NCBI GenBank assembly: GCA_964436305.1
Contig: CAYTCI010000001.1
Span: 48,037 to 112,036 of the forward strand
Reading direction: 5' to 3'
DNA: 64,000 bases
Source of the DNA: an uncultured Cytophagia bacterium
GTDB lineage: Bacteria; Zhuqueibacterota; Zhuqueibacteria; Residuimicrobiales; Residuimicrobiaceae
Shown piece by piece: positions 38,630 to 46,002 of this stretch (positions are counted from its first letter, which is position 1; each line of letters starts with the position of its first letter). The position numbers and the translations under genes were made by a program. Below the pieces are notes generated by a model. The model saw only the letters and a program-made list of their open reading frames with translations. It had not been told where the DNA came from and made no database searches.

Positions 38630-39202
38630 ATGACCAACGATGAAGCTTTGGCCCTATTCCGGGAGAGCGAGGCGCTGCTCGAGGGCCATTTCCGCCTCAC
38701 CTCGGGATTGCACAGCCCGAATTACTTCCAGTGCGCCCGGGTGCTGCAGTATCCGCAGCATGCCGAGCGCTTTTGCCGGCTGATCGCCGAACGGTTTCAC
38801 AGTGAAGGGATCGAGGTGGTGATCTCGCCGGCGATCGGCGGGATCGTGGTGGGCCAGGAGGTGGCGCGCCTGCTCGGTTGTCGCGCGATTTTTGCCGAGC
38901 GCGAGGAGGGGGCGATGACGCTGCGCCGCGGTTTCGCGATCCGGCCGGGCGAACGCTGTCTGGCGGTGGAGGATGTCGTCACCACCGGCGGCTCGGTCAA
39001 GGAAGTGATCGCTCTGGCGCAGGCCGCCGGCGCCGAGGTCAGGGGCGCGGCCTTCATCGTCGATCGCAGCGCCGGCCGGGCGTCGTTTACCGTCCCCTTT
39101 TACGCGGCGCTCAGGATGGAGGTGGTCACCTATCCACCGGAGGAGTGCCCGCTCTGCGCCCGGGGGATTCCCGTCGTCAAGCCGGGCAGCCGCAAGGTTT
39201 GA
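38630..39202 (+). CDS. pyrE: orotate phosphoribosyltransferase
   Basis: LEGHFRLTSGLHSPNYFQC and PRPP loop CLAVEDVVTTGGSVKE. Confidence 0.93.
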   Translation: MTNDEALALFRESEALLEGHFRLTSGLHSPNYFQCARVLQYPQHAERFCRLIAERFHSEGIEVVISPAIGGIVVGQEVARLLGCRAIFAEREEGAMTLRRGFAIRPGERCLAVEDVVTTGGSVKEVIALAQAAGAEVRGAAFIVDRSAGRASFTVPFYAALRMEVVTYPPEECPLCARGIPVVKPGSRKV

Positions 39203-39221
39203 AACACCGCTGCCTGTAACG

Positions 39222-39253
39222 AAAAAAAAGCCCTGTCGAGTGACAGGGCTTTT
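39222..39253. terminator. bidirectional Rho-independent terminator between convergent pyrE and the sigma factor gene
   Basis: A8 (39222-39229), then stem agccctgtc with gacagggct and loop gagt, then TTT. On the minus strand the hairpin is followed by T8. Confidence 0.8.
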
Positions 39254-39258
39254 GCGTT

Positions 39259-40143
39259 TCAGCCGAGGTATTTTCGCAGCGGCTCCAGCCGGGAGCGATG
39301 GCGCAAACGGCGCAGGGCTTTCTCCTTGATCTGCCGGACGCGTTCACGCGTCAGGGTGAAGTATTCGCCGATCTCCTCAAGCGTCAGAGGACGGTCGCCA
39401 TCCAGCCCGAAATAGAGTTTGACTATTTCCGCTTCGCGCGGTTTGAGGGTGGAGAGGACCTTCTCGATCTCTTCACGCAGGGAGGAGCGCATCAGGGTGC
39501 CGTCGGGGGGCTCGTAGCGATCGCTTTCGAGCACATCGAGGAGACTGTTGCCCTCATCCTCCTTGAAAGGTTCGTCGAGGGAGAGATGGCGCGCGGAGGT
39601 CTTGAGGACGTCCGCCACTTCAAAGGAGCTCATGTCCATGCGGGTGGCGATTTCATCCATGCTGGGTTCGCGGCCGTACTCTTTTTCGAGGGCTTCAAGC
39701 GCCCGGCCGACCTTGTTGATGGCCCCGACACGGTTGAGAGGCAGGCGCACCACGCGGGACTGTTCCGCCAGTGCCTGCAGGATGGATTGGCGAATCCACC
39801 AGACCGCATAGGAGATGAATTTGAAGCCCCTGGTCTCATCGAATCGCTGGGCAGCCTTGATGAGGCCGAGGTTGCCTTCGCTGATCAGATCCTGCAGGGG
39901 CAATCCCTGACCCTGGTATTCCTTGGCGACGCTGATGACAAAGCGCAGATTGGCTTTGACGAGCTTGTCCAGAGCTTCTTCGTCGCCTTTGCGAATACGC
40001 CGGGCCAGAGCGATCTCTTCTTCCGGAGGCAGCGGGGAAAAGCCGCCGATCTCCTCGAGATACTTTTCAATCGACTCCTTGGTCCTGGTCTCGGCAGGTT
40101 TTTTCTTTTTCTTTTTGGTCATGAGCTGCACTTGCGTTGGCAT
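39259..40143 (-). CDS. rpoD: RNA polymerase primary-like sigma-70 factor, short Bacteroidota/Chlorobi type (no region 1.1)
   Basis: [57 protein letters not shown] (regions 2.x) and [27 protein letters not shown] (4.2). Lys-run near the N-terminus. The start could instead be the ATG at 40122. Confidence 0.92.
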
Positions 40144-40212
40144 AGATGGAAACGGGCCTTTTTGAAAAGGGTTGGTTAGGAGATGATCATGTGCGTGAAT
40201 TAGGGGTCTTGC

Positions 40213-41253
40213 TTACAAAGAATGGCGCAGGACGGTTTCGATCTGCTCACAGGCCTCCGCGACTGCTGCGTCATCGACGTCAAGGTGGGTGACGAGACGG
40301 ACACGGGTGGGAGCGGTGGCGATGCAGAGCACACCTTTGTCTTTCAGTTTAACAACCAAATCAGGCGCATTTAATCCAGTTTTTCTCAGCTCAACGATGA
40401 CTATATTGGTTTGCGCCGCTTCAAGATCGACCTCGATGGGAGGAAATTTGACGAAAGTCTCAGCAATTTGACGGGCGTGGCGGTGATCGATTGCCAGGCG
40501 CTCAATATGATGATCGAGGGCATAGAGGCCGGCTGCGGCGAGGAGACCGGCCTGGCGCATGCCGCCGCCCCACATTTTGCGGAAGCGGTGGGCGCGGTCG
40601 ATAAACTCGGCGGTGCCCGTCAGCACCGAACCAACCGGAGCGCCCAGTCCCTTGGAGAGACAAACCGAGATCGAATCGAATAGGCGGCCGTACTCCAGCA
40701 GGGGGATGCCGGTGGCGACATGGGCATTCCAGATGCGCGCCCCATCGAGGTGGAGGGCCAGTCCCTGCTTGCGTGTCAGGGCCGCAATCTTTTCGATTTC
40801 GGCGAAGGGAAAGATCGCCCCGCCGGCGCGGTTATGGGTGTTCTCGAGCATCACGAGGCGGGATTGCGGGTTGTGATGGTCCGGCGGACGCAGGGCGGCT
40901 GCGATCTGCTCCGTGGTGATTGCGCCGCGCACACCTGGCAGGGGGCGGACCTGTACACCGGAAAGAGCGGCCGGCGCCCCGGCCTCATAGTTATAGATGT
41001 GGCCGTTCTCTTCACAATAGATCTCGTCCCCGGGTGAGGTATGGCTCTTGATCGCCAGCTGGTTGCTCTGGGTGCCGCTGCTGACATAAAGCGCCGCCTC
41101 CTTGCCGAAGAGGGCGGCGACCCGGGCTTGCAGCCGGTTGACGGTCGGATCTTCGCCAAAAACGTCATCGCCGACCTCGGCAGCGGCAATGGCCGCGCGC
41201 ATTTCCGGGGTTGGTCTGGTCACGGTGTCGCTGCGCAAATCGATGCTTTTCAT
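40213..41253 (-). CDS. ltaE: low-specificity L-threonine aldolase
   Basis: [38 protein letters not shown] and the PLP-fold remainder. The ATG overlaps the upstream helicase stop (ATGA, 41250-41253). Confidence 0.9.
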
Positions 41254-44246
41254 AGTGAATCCTGTTTGAAAAGGTTGAGTTGAGGGTTACTGCCGGCGCG
41301 CCGGCGCGGAGTGTGTCTCTGCAGCAGCTGCCTGCTGATGTCCTGGAGAAACCGCGAGGGGATCTGGGTATGGCGCTGGCCGCGCACCAGCCGCTGCCGC
41401 GCATGGGTCAGATAGAGCCGCTCACGGGCCCGGGTCATCCCGACATAGAAGAGCCGGCGTTCCTCCGCGATATCGCCGGTTGAGCCGAAGGCGAAGGGGA
41501 GGAGGTTCTCCTCACAGCCGATGATAAAGACTACCGGAAACTCGAGCCCCTTGGCGGCGTGCAGGGTAAGGATCTGGATGCGGTCGCCGCGCGGATCGAG
41601 GATCAGGGGTGAACTGGCCTCGGCGCCGCTGGCCGGGATCGCCTCAGCGCCATGGACGAGATCGGTGCGGTCCTGTTCATACTGATCGGCGATACGCTTG
41701 AAGGGCAGGCCGCTTTTACGCAGGACCTCCTCCAGGGGATCGGCGAGCAAACGGCTGCGCAGCAGGATGGCAAAATCGCCAAAGCTGCAGGCTCCGGCCT
41801 GTTCCGGGGCTGCCGAGCGGCTGTCCAGGGCGTAATGGCTCGTCCCCCCCATCAAGGATTCGATCTGTTCGACGACGAAGAGCGCCTCCGCCAGGTCGGA
41901 GGCGGCGGCATGGAACTGGATCCTGAGATCCGACTGCAGATGCGGAATCAGCCTCTCTTCCGGCGCCGGTGCCGCGCCCTGGTGCAGCATCCCCGCTGAT
42001 GCGGTCAGGATGGCCGGCGCGGAACGGTAATTCTCGCGCAGGACCAGGCGGCGTGCCGCCGGGAAATCGCTCTGCATGCGGGTGAAGAACTCCGGGCTTG
42101 CGCCGCGGAAGCCATAGATCGACTGGTCCGGGTCGCCGATGACACAGACATCCCGGGCGGGCAGGGCGAAGAGATGGAAGAGCTCATACTGTGCCGCATC
42201 GATATCCTGAAATTCATCGACAGCGATCACTTGCACCTGCGCGAGCAGCTGACGGCGGAGTCCGGCGTCAAAACGGAGGAGGCGCACCGGCAAGGCGATC
42301 AGGTCGTCAAAATCAACGGCATTCCATTCTACCAGCAGGTTTTCAAAGGTGCGGAAAAGGGTGAGAAAATTGGCCGGTACCGTACGGGCGATCTCCTCCG
42401 GCAGGCTATCCGGGGTATAGAGCAGCCCCTTGAGGGTGGCGATCCGCTGCAGGGCGGTGGCGCTGAGGCGTTCGCCGCTGCGTTCCATGACGGCTTGGCG
42501 AAACGCGCCGTCGGATTCCGGATCGATGAGGCGGAAGCCGGCGGAGCGGCCGAAGAAGGTGCCGGCTCTCTCCAGAAGTTCTATACCGAAGCTGTGAAAG
42601 GTGCGGATGCGCAGTCGGGCGGCTTTCTCCGCGCCGATCCGTTCGGTCAGGCGAACCTGCATCTCGCGGGCGGCCTTGCGCGTGAAGGTGATCGCGAGGA
42701 TCTCCTCGGGCCGGGCGAAATCCTCCTCAAGCAGGCTGGCGATGCGCCGGGTCAGGGTCCGGGTTTTGCCGGTGCCCGGGCCGGCCTGGATGATCAGGGG
42801 GGCGCCGCGATGGCGGACCGCTTCGCGCTGGACGGGATTGAGGCCCCAGGGATCGGCGGCTGGTTCAGCGGCACGGGAGAATGTGGCGGGCCGGGCGGGC
42901 GGCGTCGCCGGTGCAGACGCAAGCGCGGGCGCGCTGCGGGGGGCGGTGGCCGGGGCAAAGAGGGCCGCTTGCCGCAGCCAGTGCGCGCGCTCTTCAGGGT
43001 TGAACAGGGCGATATGGCCATACTCGCCATCATAGCCGGGGTGCGCGTCGACCTCGCCGCTGCGCATCCGGCGGACGGCCTCGGCCGCCATCGGTCCGGC
43101 GGCACGCTCGAGGTCGGCGAGCGGCAGATCCATCAGGATCGCGAGTTCGGGACCGAGGTCGCGCAAGAGAGCCTGATACAATCCCTGCACTTTTTTGGTC
43201 GCCGGACCGGCATCGAGGACCTCGCCGAGCAGCTCCGGCAGGGGGATCAGACTGTGGAAGGGCCTGGCCTCCGGCGGCCGATAGCCTTCGGGCCGGTCGG
43301 CCAGCTGCTGAACACGGTAACTGACACCGAGGGTGGCCGGCTTGCCGCATACCGGACAAAGTCCACCACGGCTCAGGGTCTCGGCGGGGCGCATCATCCG
43401 GCTGCACTTGCGGTGGCCGTCCATGTGGTATTTGCCCTCTTCGGGGAAGAACTCGATGGTGCCGGCAAAATCCTGGCGTTCATGATCGCTGAGCGCGGCG
43501 AAGATCGCCGGATAGGAGAGTTCGGTGTCGAAGAGATTGGCCTCGCGGGCGAGTTTTTCCGGAGAATGGGCGTCGGAATTGGAGACCAGGTGGAGGCCAT
43601 CGAGCTGCGAGAGGCGCCAGTTCATCGGCGGGTCGGAGGAGAGGCCGGTTTCAACGGCGAAGAGATGCGGCGTCAGATCGCCGAAGCACTCTGCGAGCGA
43701 ATCGAATCCGGACTGCGATCCGAGCGCCGAGAACCAGGGGGTCCAGATGTGCGCCGGAATCAGACGTGCGCCGGGATCGGTCTCGAGGACAATCTCGAGC
43801 AGATCGCGGGCATCGAGGCCGAGAATAGGCCGGCCGTCGGAGCGAATGTTGCCGATGCGCTCGAGGCGCTGCTGGAAGCGGGCGACGGCGTCGAAAGAGG
43901 GCAAAAAGACCACATTGTGGACCTTGCGCACCACTCCCTCTTTTTTGTAGATGCTGCTGATCTCACCGGAAAGGATGAAAAAGGTCTCACGGCGGCAGGC
44001 AGCGGGCACGGCCCCGGCCTGGCCGGCCGCACGCTCCGGGTTGAGGACGAAGAGGCCTTCGGTGTTGCTGGCGGGAAGCAGGGCCGCGCGCAGCTCTTCG
44101 AGCCAGGCGGGATGGGTCAGATCGCCGGTGGCGATGACCTGCAGGCCCTTGAGCTGGCCCCAACGCCATAGCTGCTCCGGGACCAGCTGGCTGCTGGTCG
44201 CCCGGGAATAACGGGAATGGATATGAAGATCGGCGATGAACCTCAT
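41250..44246 (-). CDS. fusion protein: EndoQ-like PHP-domain nuclease (TIGR00375-type) N-terminal half plus UvrD/PcrA-type SF1 helicase C-terminal half
   Basis: N-terminal half: [102 protein letters not shown]-terminal half: [62 protein letters not shown]. The ATG at 44246 is chosen because homology begins there. Confidence 0.86.
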
Positions 44247-44685
44247 GGAGCCGGGGGCCTCTGCGGATTGGTACGGATAGACGGCAGGAACGAGATGCCC
44301 TAATATACGCATTTTCAGGCAAAGTGCCAACCCTTTTGACGGCGGGAGCGCGAGCGGTCGCGGATTGCGCCAGAGCGGCACAAGGGCGCTGCTGCGCGGA
44401 CGGGTGGGAGTGGGGCGGTGAAAAGGGAGGGCGGCGCATCGCCGGTAAGTTGGTCTTTCAAAAAAACGGCAGACCATTCTGTGCAAAAGGAGGCCCTGAC
44501 TACCGATTTCAGGCCACGTGCCCGGGGTATCACTCCCCTTTTACCCGGATCAGGATCACGAGGCGGGTGGTTGTTTTTGTGTGAAGAATAACCATTTTAT
44601 AGCACTTATCAATTAGAATAAACTTGCATATTTTTAATTTTAATATTATTTTATCCTGCAAAAGGAGTAGGCTGAGGAGGAGGCG

Positions 44686-46002
44686 TTGAAGAAGACTTTT
44701 GTCCTTGATACCAACGTTATTCTGCATGATTCCGGCTGCATCTTTTTTTTCCAGGAAAACGACATCGTCATCCCGATCACCGTCATTGAAGAGATCGATG
44801 CCTTCAAGCGGGGTCAGGATCTGATCAATTACCATGCACGCGAGTTCGTCCGCCTGCTCGATACCTTCCCGGGCGACGCCCTGGTGAAGGGAGGGGTGAG
44901 CCTCGGCGAGGGGCGGGGCCATATTTCCATCCTCACGATTTTTGATGAAGAGCCGGAGATCCATCGCGCCTTTCTCGAGCAAACCCCCGACAACCGCATC
45001 CTCAGCGCCGCCCTCTTTCTCCACAAATCCGGCCGCACCGCGCAGGTAATCCTGGTCAGCAAGGATGTCAATCTGCGTCTCAAGGCCCGCGCCCTCGGGC
45101 TGGAATCCCAGGACTACACCACCGACAAGATCAAGGATATCGACAAGCTTTACCGCGGCAAGCGGCTGATCGAGGAGGTCAATCCGGAGATCATCAACCG
45201 CTTGTTCTCCGCTCCCTATGAGGTCCCTGCCGCCGAGGCCGAGATAGAAGCTCCCGTCGCCAACGAATACTTCATTCTGCGCAATGCCAGCAAATCGGTC
45301 CTGGCCTGCTGCAATCCGCACACCCAGATGCTGGAGCGTGTCGAAAAGCTGCAGGCCTACGGGATCACGCCGCGCAACGCCGAGCAATCCTTCGCCCTGC
45401 ATGCCTTGCTCAATCCCGCGGTGCCGCTGGTGACGCTGAGCGGCAAGGCGGGAACCGGCAAGACCCTGCTGACGCTGGCGGCGGCCCTCGAGCGGCGAAA
45501 GGAGTACCGGCAGATCTTTCTGGCGCGGCCGGTGGTCGCCCTGTCGAACAAGGATCTTGGCTACCTGCCCGGGGACATCGAATCCAAGCTCGATCCCTAT
45601 ATGCAGCCCCTTTACGACAATCTCGGTGTCATCCGCAATCAGTTCAAGGAGAGCGATGAGCGGGCGCAGCGCATCGGCGAAATGCTCGAGAGCGGCAAGC
45701 TGGAGATCGCCCCTCTTGCCTATATCCGCGGACGCAGCCTGGACCACATCTATTTCATCGTCGACGAGGCGCAGAATCTGACGCCGCATGAGGTCAAGAC
45801 CATCATCACCCGGGCCGGCGAGGGCACCAAGGTGGTCTTTACCGGCGATCCCTCGCAGATCGACACCCCCTATCTGGACAGCCGGTCGACCGGTCTGAAC
45901 TATCTGATCAACCGCATGCAGGGTCAGGCGATGTATGCGCATGTCACCCTGGAGAAGGGCGAACGCTCTCCGCTGGCGGAACTGGCGAGCGATCTGCTCT
46001 AA
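44686..46002 (+). CDS. PhoH2-type protein: N-terminal PIN domain fused to PhoH ATPase (YlaK-like)
   Basis: PIN: [14 protein letters not shown]...[12 protein letters not shown]. PhoH: [54 protein letters not shown] start preceded by GGAGGAGG. Confidence 0.9.

What the first reader, a model, noticed from the sequence alone, without database searches (positions are those of the whole stretch)
41250..44246. EndoQ-like PHP nuclease fused to a UvrD-type helicase, translationally coupled to ltaE
Seen in sequence: the N-terminal ~400 aa carry the full TIGR00375/EndoQ-type block set ([89 protein letters not shown], Zn-finger CPVCGKP). A ~90-aa Ala/Pro-rich linker follows, then a complete SF1 UvrD/PcrA helicase ([36 protein letters not shown]). 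The stop overlaps the ltaE start (ATGA at 41250-41253). Established knowledge: archaeal and Bacillus EndoQ nicks DNA 5' of deaminated bases (dU, dI) and AP sites. Inference: covalent coupling to a 3'-5' helicase suggests a self-contained nick-and-unwind repair enzyme. I cannot judge how widespread or how well characterised this fusion is in bacteria.
Basis: partly seen in the sequence, partly recalled or inferred. Interest (0 to 1): 0.6.

Follow-up and report, generated by a model that had tools for sequence, protein, structure and literature searches.

The report
Clamp-tethered EndoQ nuclease–UvrD helicase fusion
This gene really does encode one protein that joins a damaged-base nicking enzyme (endonuclease Q) to a stripped-down UvrD-type DNA-unwinding motor and ends in a sliding-clamp docking peptide; the design is common in bacteria and catalogued in databases, but I found no experimental study of it.

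Summary
Window 41250-44246 (minus strand) is one 998-aa ORF.

- **Nuclease half:** residues 1-430 are a full-length homologue of Pyrococcus furiosus EndoQ. All metal ligands and lesion-pocket residues are invariant across 99 homologues.
- **Helicase half:** after a 38-aa disordered Ala/Pro linker, residues 469-984 are an SF1A UvrD/PcrA motor with every helicase motif.

1. The protein ends in QLNLF, a beta-clamp-binding-type motif. It sits at the C-terminus of 114 of 120 fused homologues, of most of the 65 standalone bacterial EndoQs checked, and of the two separate partner helicases read. A second, internal QAALF marks the old EndoQ C-terminus.
2. In this genus the helicase's 2B domain is almost entirely deleted, and the PcrA/UvrD C-terminal Tudor domain is absent.
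3. The architecture is widespread: at least 593 species. Of the best 80 loci, 56 are fused, 8 are adjacent genes and 14 are nuclease alone.

The long homologues and their clamp motifs were tabulated in a 2016 supplement (PMC4858679). This scan has already noted the fusion 101 times, in at least 91 genomes. I found no biochemical study.

The most likely function is clamp-tethered nick-and-unwind repair of dU, dI and AP sites. The ltaE overlap is lineage-specific synteny.

The parts
41250..44246 (-). 998-aa EndoQ-UvrD fusion gene (ATG 44246, TGA 41250-41252)
   Evidence: Homologues are full length and collinear.
42957..44246 (-). EndoQ module, aa 1-430: PHP catalytic domain, Zn-binding domain and C-terminal helical domain. 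Metal ligands H8, H10, E95, H110, H166, D225, H227. Pocket residues T169, W171, E199, G201, L202, S203, N223.
   Evidence: phmmer against 5zb8/7k30 gives E 9e-47. These residues are invariant or at least 90% conserved in 99 homologues. Residue roles are taken from PMC5961232. The model matches 5zb8 with TM 0.89.
43347..43415 (-). Zn-binding site H278-x2-C281 ... C297-x2-C300 (HCCC; PfuEndoQ has C4: C249/C252/C268/C271)
   Evidence: Alignment. All four residues are invariant in the fused clade. Translation checked.
42957..42971 (-). Internal QAALF (aa 426-430): a clamp-binding-like pentapeptide at the former C-terminus of the EndoQ module
   Evidence: Q426 and F430 are at least 90% conserved in fused proteins. 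Most of the 65 standalone EndoQs checked end here with QLTLF, QMTLF or QLSLF.
42843..42956 (-). 38-aa Ala/Pro-rich disordered linker (aa 431-468)
   Evidence: pLDDT is below 50 for 431-464. Length and sequence vary among homologues.
41295..42842 (-). SF1A UvrD/PcrA-type helicase core (aa 469-984): Q473, Walker A 488-495, TFT 520-522, DEFQD 677-681, motif III 704-715, NYRS 739-742, motif V 895-903, motif VI 935-940
   Evidence: Pfam and NCBIfam matches. PcrA 1pjr E 3e-73. Foldseek matches to 1pjr, 2is1 and 4c2t. The motifs are invariant.
41583..41693 (-). Remnant of the 2B domain (aa 852-888): one helix plus a disordered loop, in place of the roughly 165-aa 2B domain
   Evidence: PcrA residues 391-554 have no counterpart. 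Motif IV-V spacing is 156 aa against a family median of 246. pLDDT is below 50 for 869-886.
41268..41282 (-). C-terminal QLNLF (aa 989-993), a beta-clamp-binding-type motif preceded by a basic tail and followed by KQDSL
   Evidence: The motif is present in 114 of 120 fused homologues. It is absent from the genome's own 741-aa PcrA/UvrD and its second UvrD-like paralogue. The consensus QL[S/D]LF and a table of bacterial EndoQ homologues are in the PMC4858679 supplement.
44302..44330 (-). Sigma-70-type promoter TTGGCA-17-TATATT, about 55 nt upstream of the ATG
   Evidence: Best promoter match in 39100-44700, 10 of 12 positions. Both hexamers are conserved in five congeners.
40213..41253 (-). ltaE (low-specificity L-threonine aldolase / GntG-family aldolase), whose start overlaps the fusion's stop
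   Evidence: Synteny is seen only in the window's own lineage.
39226..40143 (-). 294-aa RpoD/RpoS-like sigma factor gene (39259-40143) and the only terminator-like hairpin of the region (39253-39226). Probable end of the transcription unit.

Best explanation
The gene encodes a single-chain, sliding-clamp-tethered 'nick-and-unwind' repair enzyme. This is the helicase-fused form of bacterial endonuclease Q.

Shown here:
- The N-terminal 430 residues have the complete EndoQ architecture (PHP domain, Zn-binding domain and helical domain). Every metal ligand and every residue of the pocket that accepts a flipped-out uracil or hypoxanthine is conserved.
- The C-terminal 530 residues are an SF1A (UvrD/PcrA/Rep-type) ATPase motor with all motifs conserved.
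- The two halves occur fused, or as adjacent genes, in many phyla.
- The protein ends in a QLNLF beta-clamp-binding-type peptide. It also keeps a second such peptide (QAALF) at the old EndoQ C-terminus.

Inferred:
1. The EndoQ module flips dU, dI or an abasic site into its pocket. [quoted passage not shown]
2. The tethered 3'-to-5' motor enters at that nick. It peels the lesion-bearing strand away, and/or strips the nuclease off its product, much as UvrD clears the post-incision complex in nucleotide excision repair. This creates the flap or gap that a polymerase, a 5'-nuclease and a ligase then process.
3. The clamp-binding peptides dock the enzyme on DnaN rings left on newly replicated or nicked DNA. 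This parallels the PIP-box/PCNA stimulation of archaeal EndoQ and hands the nick to clamp-bound polymerase and ligase.

In this genus the autoinhibitory 2B domain of the motor is deleted. The helicase is therefore predicted to be constitutively competent as a monomer and to be regulated by the nuclease module and the clamp, not by 2B.
For: EndoQ identity:
- phmmer against PfuEndoQ 5zb8/7k30 gives E 9e-47 over the whole chain. TIGR00375 gives E 7e-47.
- The AlphaFold model (pLDDT 87.9) matches 5zb8 with TM 0.89 and rmsd 2.5 A.
- Metal ligands H8, H10, E95, H110, H166, D225 and pocket residues T169, E199, G201, L202, S203 correspond to Pfu H8, H10, E76, H84, H139, D193 and T142, E167, G169, L170, S171. 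Mutation of these abolishes or reduces Pfu activity (PMC5961232). All are invariant in 99 homologues.

Helicase identity:
- PF00580 E 4e-64, PcrA 1pjr E 3e-73 and Foldseek matches to PcrA, UvrD and Rep at E 1e-40.
- Motifs Q, I, Ia, II, III, IV, V and VI are invariant.

Functional linkage of the two halves:
- About 36 of 41 genomes of the order carry the intact fusion; most of the rest hold broken or contig-end copies.
- Of the 80 best loci from at least 593 species, 56 are fused and 8 are adjacent gene pairs.
- Omnitrophota 428-aa EndoQ genes are followed directly by 508-559-aa UvrD-like genes.
- The best 150 of 3820 family clusters are nearly all longer than 900 aa.

Clamp motif:
- Q[LM]x[LM]F lies at the extreme C-terminus in 114 of 120 fused homologues, in most of the 65 standalone EndoQs checked, and in the split helicases (SQLDFF, SQMSLFE).
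- It is absent from the genome's housekeeping PcrA/UvrD and its other paralogue.
- The same motifs were tabulated for bacterial EndoQ homologues by Shiraishi et al. 2016. That paper showed that the analogous PIP box mediates PCNA binding and stimulation in archaea.

Housekeeping character:
- The gene is single copy and vertically conserved. It is syntenic with ltaE, an rpoD-like sigma gene and phoH2, and has its own conserved promoter.

Niche:
- EndoV was not found in this genome or in 38 of 41 relatives, including a closed genome. UDG and Nfo are present.

2B loss. Engineered 2B deletions unmask helicase activity in UvrD1 (title of PMC13646824).
Against: - No enzymology exists for any fused member in the literature I could search.
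- TIGR00375 scores 160.6 bits, below its 326.6-bit cut-off, and identity to PfuEndoQ is only about 30%.
- The Zn site is HCCC, not C4.
- Interdomain geometry is not predicted (pTM 0.58, disordered linker). How the motor reaches the nick is therefore unknown.
- The strand on which the 3'-to-5' motor loads, and so which strand is displaced, is undetermined.
- 14 of the 80 best loci have EndoQ with no helicase gene found immediately downstream (I searched only the same strand within 1.5 kb), and Bacillus EndoQ works alone. The helicase is therefore not obligatory.
- Clamp binding is inferred from a pentapeptide only.
- The scarcity of EndoV among relatives is based on non-independent, mostly incomplete genomes.
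Confidence: 0.65

Rival explanations
1. It is an anti-phage or anti-foreign-DNA nuclease-helicase. The EndoQ module recognises uracil-containing or otherwise deaminated invading DNA (for example dU phages, or DNA attacked by deaminases), and the helicase drives its degradation.
For: A review reports that a defence role has been suggested for Bacillus EndoQ, which is not inhibited by the phage protein Ugi (PMC8307549). The helicase half hits PADLOC GajB and DRT-associated helicase models at E about 1e-77. Nuclease-helicase fusions are common in defence systems.
Against: - The PADLOC hits cover only the generic UvrD core, and no GajA or other partner is adjacent.
- The gene is single copy, found in about 40 of 41 genomes of the order (intact in about 36), and sits in conserved synteny with core genes (ltaE, rpoD-like sigma, phoH2, pyrE/F). 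It is not in a variable island.
- No neighbour is conserved across phyla.
- Clamp-binding motifs point to the host's own replication and repair machinery.
Confidence: 0.08
2. It is a recombination or fork-processing helicase-nuclease analogous to AddA, RecB or AdnB. The PHP domain acts as a general exo- or endonuclease on unwound DNA ends, not as a lesion-specific nickase.
For: PHP domains in PolX and Pol III have exonuclease activity (established knowledge). Foldseek also matches AdnB, AddA and RecB chains through the SF1A core. NCBIfam gives partial recB and addA hits.
Against: - The nuclease half is not a generic PHP domain. It is collinear with EndoQ through the Zn-binding and helical domains, and the lesion pocket (G201, L202, S203, E199, T169) is invariant.
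- There is no AddB, RecC or AdnA-like partner gene next to it.
- The nuclease is N-terminal and of a different fold from the PD-(D/E)XK nucleases of AddA and RecB.
- The recB and addA matches are far below their cut-offs.
Confidence: 0.07
3. The fusion is an assembly or frameshift artefact that joins two separate genes.
For: Split versions, with separate EndoQ and helicase genes, do exist in other phyla.
Against: The single frame is uninterrupted here and in four congeners at 72-84% identity. It is also a single frame in 56 independent species-level loci. The linker is in frame and variable, and the C-terminal motif sits only at the end of the long protein.
Confidence: 0.01

Closest known systems
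Archaeal endonuclease Q (PfuEndoQ PF1551, TkoEndoQ; PDB 5ZB8, 7K30-7K33)
   Same: It shares the three-domain architecture (PHP, Zn-binding, helical), all metal ligands, the lesion-pocket residues and the Trp of the beta7-alpha5 loop. Both carry a clamp-docking peptide at the C-terminus (a PIP box for PCNA in archaea).
   Different: Identity is about 30% and TIGR00375 scores below its cut-off. The Zn site is HCCC, not C4. A 530-aa SF1A helicase is attached. The docking peptide is of the bacterial beta-clamp type and is present twice.
Bacterial standalone EndoQ (Bacillus pumilus / B. subtilis EndoQ; 'family 2/3' of Shiraishi et al. 2017)
   Same: This is the bacterial branch of the same family. 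Activity on dU, dI and AP sites has been shown for the Bacillus enzymes (as cited in PMC5961232 and PMC8438529).
   Different: The Bacillus enzymes are about 390-aa nucleases without a helicase. The 2017 paper that defines the three families 'by domain organisation' is not held in the library, so I could not check whether it names the helicase domain.
Long bacterial EndoQ homologues listed in Supplementary Fig. S1 of Shiraishi et al. 2016 (e.g. Caldilinea aerophila, Rhodothermus marinus, Geobacter metallireducens, Zymomonas mobilis, Sorangium cellulosum; 945-1244 aa)
   Same: They have the same architecture (lengths around 1000-1240 aa) and the same C-terminal QLxLF motif. This is the family to which the window's protein belongs.
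   Different: That table reports only the pentapeptide and its positions. The word 'helicase' does not occur in the supplement, and no experiment was done. The window's protein is from an uncultured KSB1-type lineage and lacks the 2B domain.
UvrD / PcrA / Rep (SF1A helicases; PDB 2IS1, 1PJR, 1UAA)
   Same: Domains 1A, 1B and 2A are present with all motifs. Acting after a nick has precedent in UvrD's roles after UvrC or MutH/MutL incision (established knowledge).
   Different: Scores are far below the equivalog cut-offs (347 against 911 bits for pcrA). The 2B domain is deleted, there is no C-terminal Tudor/RNAP-binding domain, and it carries a clamp-binding peptide. The genome has a separate canonical 741-aa PcrA/UvrD.
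Engineered 2B-deletion helicases (Rep-delta-2B; mycobacterial UvrD1-delta-2B)
   Same: This is a natural counterpart: the motor lacks the 2B domain. The UvrD1 deletion unmasks latent helicase activity in vitro (title of PMC13646824).
   Different: Here the loss is natural. It is fixed in a genus-level clade and recurs elsewhere in the family. Its consequence is untested.
AddA / RecB / AdnB helicase-nuclease polypeptides
   Same: An SF1A motor and a nuclease lie in one chain.
   Different: Domain order is reversed and the nuclease fold differs (PD-(D/E)XK). Those enzymes work on double-strand ends with a partner subunit.

Membership tests
Endonuclease Q family (TIGR00375 / COG1379 / Pfam PF27218 MJ0043_C) | PHP-fold catalytic domain with the His/His/Glu/His/His/Asp(/His) metal ligands | tested here: met
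   H8, H10, E95, H110, H166, D225 and H227 align with Pfu H8, H10, E76, H84, H139, D193 and H195. All are invariant in 99 homologues.
Endonuclease Q family (TIGR00375 / COG1379 / Pfam PF27218 MJ0043_C) | Deaminated-base pocket (Pfu H139, T142, E167, G169, L170, S171, N191, D193) | tested here: met
   H166, T169, E199, G201, L202, S203 and D225 are invariant; N223 is at least 90% conserved.
Endonuclease Q family (TIGR00375 / COG1379 / Pfam PF27218 MJ0043_C) | Zn-binding domain with four Cys (C4) and CPxCG | tested here: inconclusive
   CPVCG is present. The first ligand is His (H278-x2-C281 ... C297-x2-C300) and is invariant in the fused clade. This is probably a functional HCCC site but is not the canonical C4.
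Endonuclease Q family (TIGR00375 / COG1379 / Pfam PF27218 MJ0043_C) | C-terminal helical domain, and overall fold superposable on PfuEndoQ | tested here: met
   The alignment runs to Pfu residue 383. The model matches 5zb8 with TM 0.89 and rmsd 2.5 A over 426 columns.
Endonuclease Q family (TIGR00375 / COG1379 / Pfam PF27218 MJ0043_C) | Score above the curated TIGR00375 cut-off | tested here: not met
   The score is 160.6 bits against a cut-off of 326.6. The model is a hypothetical equivalog. Among the control genomes it scores over the cut-off in only 2 of the 3 it hits (Bacillus subtilis, Methanocaldococcus jannaschii, Methanosarcina acetivorans). The precomputed newer Pfam PF27218 does cover this protein and its homologues.
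Endonuclease Q family (TIGR00375 / COG1379 / Pfam PF27218 MJ0043_C) | Clamp-interaction peptide at the C-terminus (PIP box in archaea, QL[S/D]LF in bacteria) | tested here: met
   QLNLF lies at 989-993 and QAALF at 426-430. Published table.
Endonuclease Q family (TIGR00375 / COG1379 / Pfam PF27218 MJ0043_C) | Cleavage of the phosphodiester bond 5' of dU, dI or an AP site | not testable with these tools
   This needs enzymology.
UvrD/PcrA/Rep SF1A helicases | Motifs Q, I, Ia, II (DExQD), III, IV, V and VI | tested here: met
   Q473, 488-[11 protein letters not shown] 520, DEFQD 677, [12 protein letters not shown] 704, NYRS 739, LHAAKGLEF 895 and VGMTRA 935. All are invariant.
UvrD/PcrA/Rep SF1A helicases | Four-subdomain layout 1A/1B/2A/2B | tested here: not met
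   The 2B domain is missing. PcrA residues 391-554 are unmatched. Motif IV-V spacing is 156 aa against a median of 246. Only one helix and a disordered loop remain.
UvrD/PcrA/Rep SF1A helicases | Equivalog-level score (pcrA, uvrD, rep) and C-terminal Tudor/RNAP-binding domain | tested here: not met
   pcrA scores 347 against 911 bits, uvrD 254 against 1144 and rep 328 against 951. The tail after 2A is about 25 residues ending in the clamp motif. The genome's true PcrA/UvrD has the Tudor-like tail.
Gabija GajB / defence-associated UvrD-like helicases | Adjacent GajA (OLD/TOPRIM nuclease) or another defence partner, and location in a defence island | tested here: not met
   Neighbours are ltaE, a sigma factor gene, phoH2, pyrE/F-like genes and TonB receptor genes. 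The PADLOC hits are confined to the helicase core.

The most novel reading that the evidence does not exclude
EndoQ plus its dedicated helicase, whether fused or adjacent, is a complete clamp-coupled alternative excision repair machine. On this reading it is the main route for removing hypoxanthine, and a back-up route for uracil and AP sites, in the many bacterial phyla that lack EndoV. The helicase would supply the long-unknown step after the EndoQ nick. Natural 2B-less versions, such as the one in this window, would be constitutively active monomeric SF1A helicases regulated in cis by a nuclease domain and the beta clamp.
Probability: 0.4. Interest if true: 0.65.

Novelty: new variant of a known kind. 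Interest (0 to 1): 0.5.

Why it matters
What happens after EndoQ makes its nick is still unsettled, even in archaea. The published models invoke an unnamed helicase or strand-displacing polymerase (PMC4357722, PMC8438529).

A protein family present in hundreds of bacterial species wires an SF1A motor and clamp-docking peptides directly to the nuclease. That gives a concrete, testable answer: nick, unwind, and hand over on the clamp.

It would also:
- broaden EndoQ from an 'archaeal and a few Bacillus' enzyme to a mainstream bacterial repair factor;
- explain how lineages without EndoV deal with deaminated adenine;
- offer natural 2B-less UvrD-type motors for the long debate on how the 2B domain regulates SF1A helicases.

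Many databases still label these proteins only as 'UvrD-helicase domain-containing protein'. Some nuclease-only proteins are mislabelled 'DNA helicase UvrD'.

Tried and rejected
- **Literature.** Searches for EndoQ with helicase, UvrD, PHP or fused, and for TIGR00375, MJ0043 and YqxK, found no study of the fusion. The 2017 B. pumilus paper, the 2020 J Bacteriol paper and the 2021 PNAS structure paper are not held. I therefore could not check whether 'family 3' is defined by the helicase domain.
- **Defence reading.** PADLOC gave only generic GajB-type helicase hits, so I rejected it as the main reading.
- **Conserved partner gene.** All-against-all clustering of ORFs in 80 loci found none across phyla. 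Apart from antisense shadow ORFs, the only recurring neighbour was dnaN, in 8 Desulfobacterota loci.
- **Sigma-54 promoter.** I considered one in the conserved TTGGCAC box upstream. The GG-GC spacing does not fit. The box is the -35 element of a sigma-70-type promoter.
- **Alternative starts.** The upstream TTG at 44486 and ATG at 44312 are rejected.
- **Functional link to ltaE.** Rejected, because the synteny is restricted to the window's own lineage.

Full report
**1. Observation**

The minus strand of window 41250-44246 is a single open frame of 998 codons. The frame stays open upstream to a TTG at 44486, but three lines of evidence fix the start at ATG 44246.
- Homologues align from residue 1, and M1 is at least 90% conserved in an alignment of 99 full-length relatives.
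- In five members of the genus the coding-type conservation begins exactly at this ATG. The upstream 200 nt are not conserved as protein.
- The alternative ATG at 44312 lies in the 17-nt spacer of the best sigma-70-type promoter of the region, TTGGCA-17-TATATT at 44330-44302. Both hexamers are conserved in the congeners.

The stop TGA overlaps the ATG of the next gene as ATGA.

**2. The nuclease half**

Residues 5-417 align with PfuEndoQ residues 5-383 (PDB 5zb8, 7k30; E 9e-47). TIGR00375 is matched at E 7e-47, although at 160.6 bits it is below the curated 326.6-bit cut-off.

I mapped the residues that the crystal-structure paper showed to bind the two catalytic Zn ions and to form the lesion pocket (PMC5961232; PMC8307549).
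- Metal ligands: Pfu H8, H10, E76, H84, H139, D193, H195 correspond to H8, H10, E95, H110, H166, D225, H227.
- Pocket and loop: Pfu T142, W144, E167, G169, L170, S171, N191 correspond to T169, W171, E199, G201, L202, S203, N223.

All are invariant, or at least 90% conserved, across the 99 relatives.

The structural Zn site differs in one ligand. It is H278-x2-C281 ... C297-x2-C300, where Pfu has C4. The His is itself invariant in the fused clade.

An AlphaFold2 model built on the 99-sequence alignment has mean pLDDT 87.9. Its N-terminal half superposes on 5zb8 with TM 0.89 and rmsd 2.5 A.

**3. The helicase half**

Residues 469-984 match PF00580 (E 4e-64) and UvrD_C, PcrA 1pjr (E 3e-73), and by fold PcrA, UvrD and Rep (E about 1e-40). 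Motifs Q, I, Ia, II, III, IV, V and VI are invariant.

It is not an orthologue of the housekeeping enzymes. Scores are about a third of the pcrA, uvrD and rep cut-offs. The genome also carries a separate canonical 741-aa PcrA/UvrD with a full 2B domain and a Tudor-like tail, plus another UvrD-like paralogue.

Two features are missing here.
- **The 2B domain.** PcrA residues 391-554 have no counterpart. The motif IV to motif V spacing is 156 aa, against a family median of 246. The model shows only one helix and a disordered loop at 852-888. The loss is shared by the genus-level clade (P0002-P0008). Similarly short versions occur sporadically elsewhere in the family, including one split helicase (P0243).
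- **The C-terminal Tudor domain**, which is absent.

**4. The linker and the clamp motifs**

Residues 431-468 are Ala/Pro-rich and disordered (pLDDT below 50). That is 38 aa, not about 90.

The protein ends ...[14 protein letters not shown][LM]x[LM]F pentapeptide preceded by a basic tail sits at or within a few residues of the C-terminus in 114 of 120 fused homologues. The 428-431-aa standalone bacterial EndoQs mostly end the same way, with QLTLF, QMTLF or QLSLF. So do the separately encoded partner helicases, with SQLDFF and SQMSLFE. The genome's housekeeping UvrD paralogues do not.

In fused proteins the former EndoQ C-terminus keeps a QxxLF (QAALF 426-430; Q and F at least 90% conserved).

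The motif fits the bacterial beta-clamp-binding consensus QL[S/D]LF. This is not new. Shiraishi et al. 2016 tabulated exactly these motifs for bacterial EndoQ homologues, including about 30 proteins of 945-1244 aa from cultured bacteria. In the same paper they showed that the analogous PIP box of archaeal EndoQ binds PCNA and that PCNA stimulates the nuclease (PMC4858679). Neither the supplement nor the clamp and bacterial passages I read in the main text mention the helicase domain.

**5. Distribution**

- In the window's own order the fusion was found in about 40 of 41 sampled genomes, as one intact frame in about 36.
They span Chloroflexota, KSB1, Latescibacterota, Fibrobacterota, Gemmatimonadota, Desulfobacterota, Nitrospirota, Planctomycetota, Omnitrophota, Myxococcota, Bacillota, Spirochaetota, Bacteroidota and others.
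- Of the best 80 loci, 56 are fused, 8 have the helicase as the next gene, 14 have no helicase gene immediately downstream on the same strand, and 3 are cut by contig ends.
- Two Omnitrophota contigs show the split arrangement with called genes.
- Among 1.84 billion cluster representatives, 3820 match the nuclease half (1080 at E of 1e-30 or better). The best 150 are almost all longer than 900 aa.

The fused form is thus a major, perhaps the dominant, bacterial form of EndoQ. Repeated fusion, fission and adjacency is classical evidence that the two activities work together.

**6. Context**

The gene has its own conserved promoter. It is followed by ltaE (above the curated cut-off for low-specificity threonine aldolase), then by a 294-aa RpoD/RpoS-like sigma gene, and then by the only terminator-like hairpin of the region at 39253-39226. 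It is divergent from a PIN-PhoH2 gene.

This synteny is conserved in the genus, in the family and in two further unnamed MAGs, but nowhere else among 80 loci. The ltaE coupling is therefore lineage-specific co-transcription. No neighbour is conserved across phyla.

This housekeeping, vertically inherited setting argues against a defence-island function. The PADLOC hits are generic helicase-core matches.

The genome has a UDG-superfamily gene and nfo. No EndoV and no clear xth were found (the genome is 90% complete). EndoV was found in only 3 of 41 relatives, and one closed genome lacks it. This leaves EndoQ as the obvious candidate for hypoxanthine repair in this lineage. The relatives are not independent samples, so this is only suggestive.

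**7. Mechanism**

Shown: both catalytic centres, the lesion pocket and the docking peptides are under strong purifying selection, and the two modules are linked genetically.

Inferred from the known properties of EndoQ (a cut 5' of dU, dI or AP sites that leaves 3'-OH and 5'-P; PMC4357722) and of SF1A helicases (3'-to-5' translocation and entry at nicks, as for UvrD after UvrC or MutH incision):
1. The nuclease nicks.
2. The tethered motor unwinds from the nick, displaces the lesion-bearing strand and/or removes the nuclease from its product.
3. The clamp coordinates hand-over to a polymerase, a 5'-nuclease and a ligase.

Which strand the motor tracks is unknown, and the interdomain geometry is not predicted (pTM 0.58). 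The 2B domain is autoinhibitory in Rep and UvrD-type enzymes, and its deletion unmasks helicase activity in UvrD1 (PMC13646824). I therefore predict that the natural 2B-less motor of this genus is constitutively competent.

**8. Rivals**

- Anti-phage defence, about 0.08.
- A RecB/AddA-like end-processing enzyme, about 0.07.
- An assembly artefact, about 0.01.

Each is addressed above and in the Rival explanations section.

**9. Novelty and verdict**

The architecture is catalogued, usually as 'UvrD-helicase domain-containing protein'. Its clamp motif was tabulated in 2016. This scan has flagged it 101 times in at least 91 genomes, with the same reading. I found no experimental work on any fused member.

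I file it as a new, uncharacterised variant of a known kind: EndoQ. This window adds a naturally 2B-less motor. Interest is moderate (0.5). It is ordinary as an annotation, but it is a good and directly testable lead on the unknown post-incision step of EndoQ repair.

Noticed in passing
window 39226-44330 (minus strand): Apparent three-gene transcription unit: a conserved TTGGCA-17-TATATT promoter, then the EndoQ-UvrD gene, then ltaE (ATGA overlap), then after a 69-nt gap a 294-aa RpoD/RpoS-like sigma factor gene, then the only terminator-like hairpin of the region (39253-39226). The first 126-130 residues of the sigma protein are identical across the genus, and it is 95% identical in another unnamed MAG (L013). 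It may be the short primary sigma factor of this lineage.
   Followed up: partly
window 44686-46002 (+): A PIN-PhoH2-type gene (RNA 5'-3' helicase PhoH2 model at 268 bits, below its cut-off) is transcribed divergently from the fusion gene. The pairing is conserved in the genus and family and in one Fibrobacterota locus (L088).
   Followed up: partly
L036, L043, L044, L054, L055, L057, L076, L079 (Desulfobacterota loci): dnaN (beta sliding clamp; TIGR00663 at 254 bits for the L055 copy) lies within a few kb of the EndoQ or EndoQ-UvrD gene in 8 of 80 loci, all from one phylum. In at least one locus gyrB is also nearby. This is suggestive given the clamp-binding motifs, but the loci are related.
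   Followed up: partly
own genome G000 and 40 relatives: Endonuclease V (PF04493) was found in only 3 of 41 genomes of the order. One closed, 100%-complete genome lacks it, while the EndoQ-UvrD gene is nearly universal. The window's genome has a UDG-superfamily gene (C46) and nfo (C7) but no clear xth.
   Followed up: partly
proteins P0254, P0378, P0382, P0336, P0243 and the window clade P0002-P0008: The helicase 2B domain has been shortened or lost in scattered members of the family. Motif IV-V spacing is 133-161 aa against a median of 246. The split helicase partners are also short (508-559 aa).
   Followed up: partly
proteins P0146, P0152, P0191, P0214: Public annotation error: nuclease-only EndoQ-family proteins of about 419-431 aa are named 'DNA helicase UvrD' in NCBI records. 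The name was presumably transferred from the fused proteins.
   Followed up: no
L034, L037, L058, L064, L066, L069, L075, L080 (Nitrospirota / Thermodesulfovibrionales): Standalone EndoQ genes without a helicase gene immediately downstream are concentrated in Nitrospirota and some Desulfobacterota. I did not check whether a partner helicase is encoded elsewhere in those genomes.
   Followed up: no
window 40213-41253 (minus strand): The 'ltaE' product scores higher on the GntG-family PLP-dependent aldolase subfamily model (425 bits, cut-off 230) than on the low-specificity threonine aldolase equivalog (328 bits, cut-off 312).
   Followed up: no
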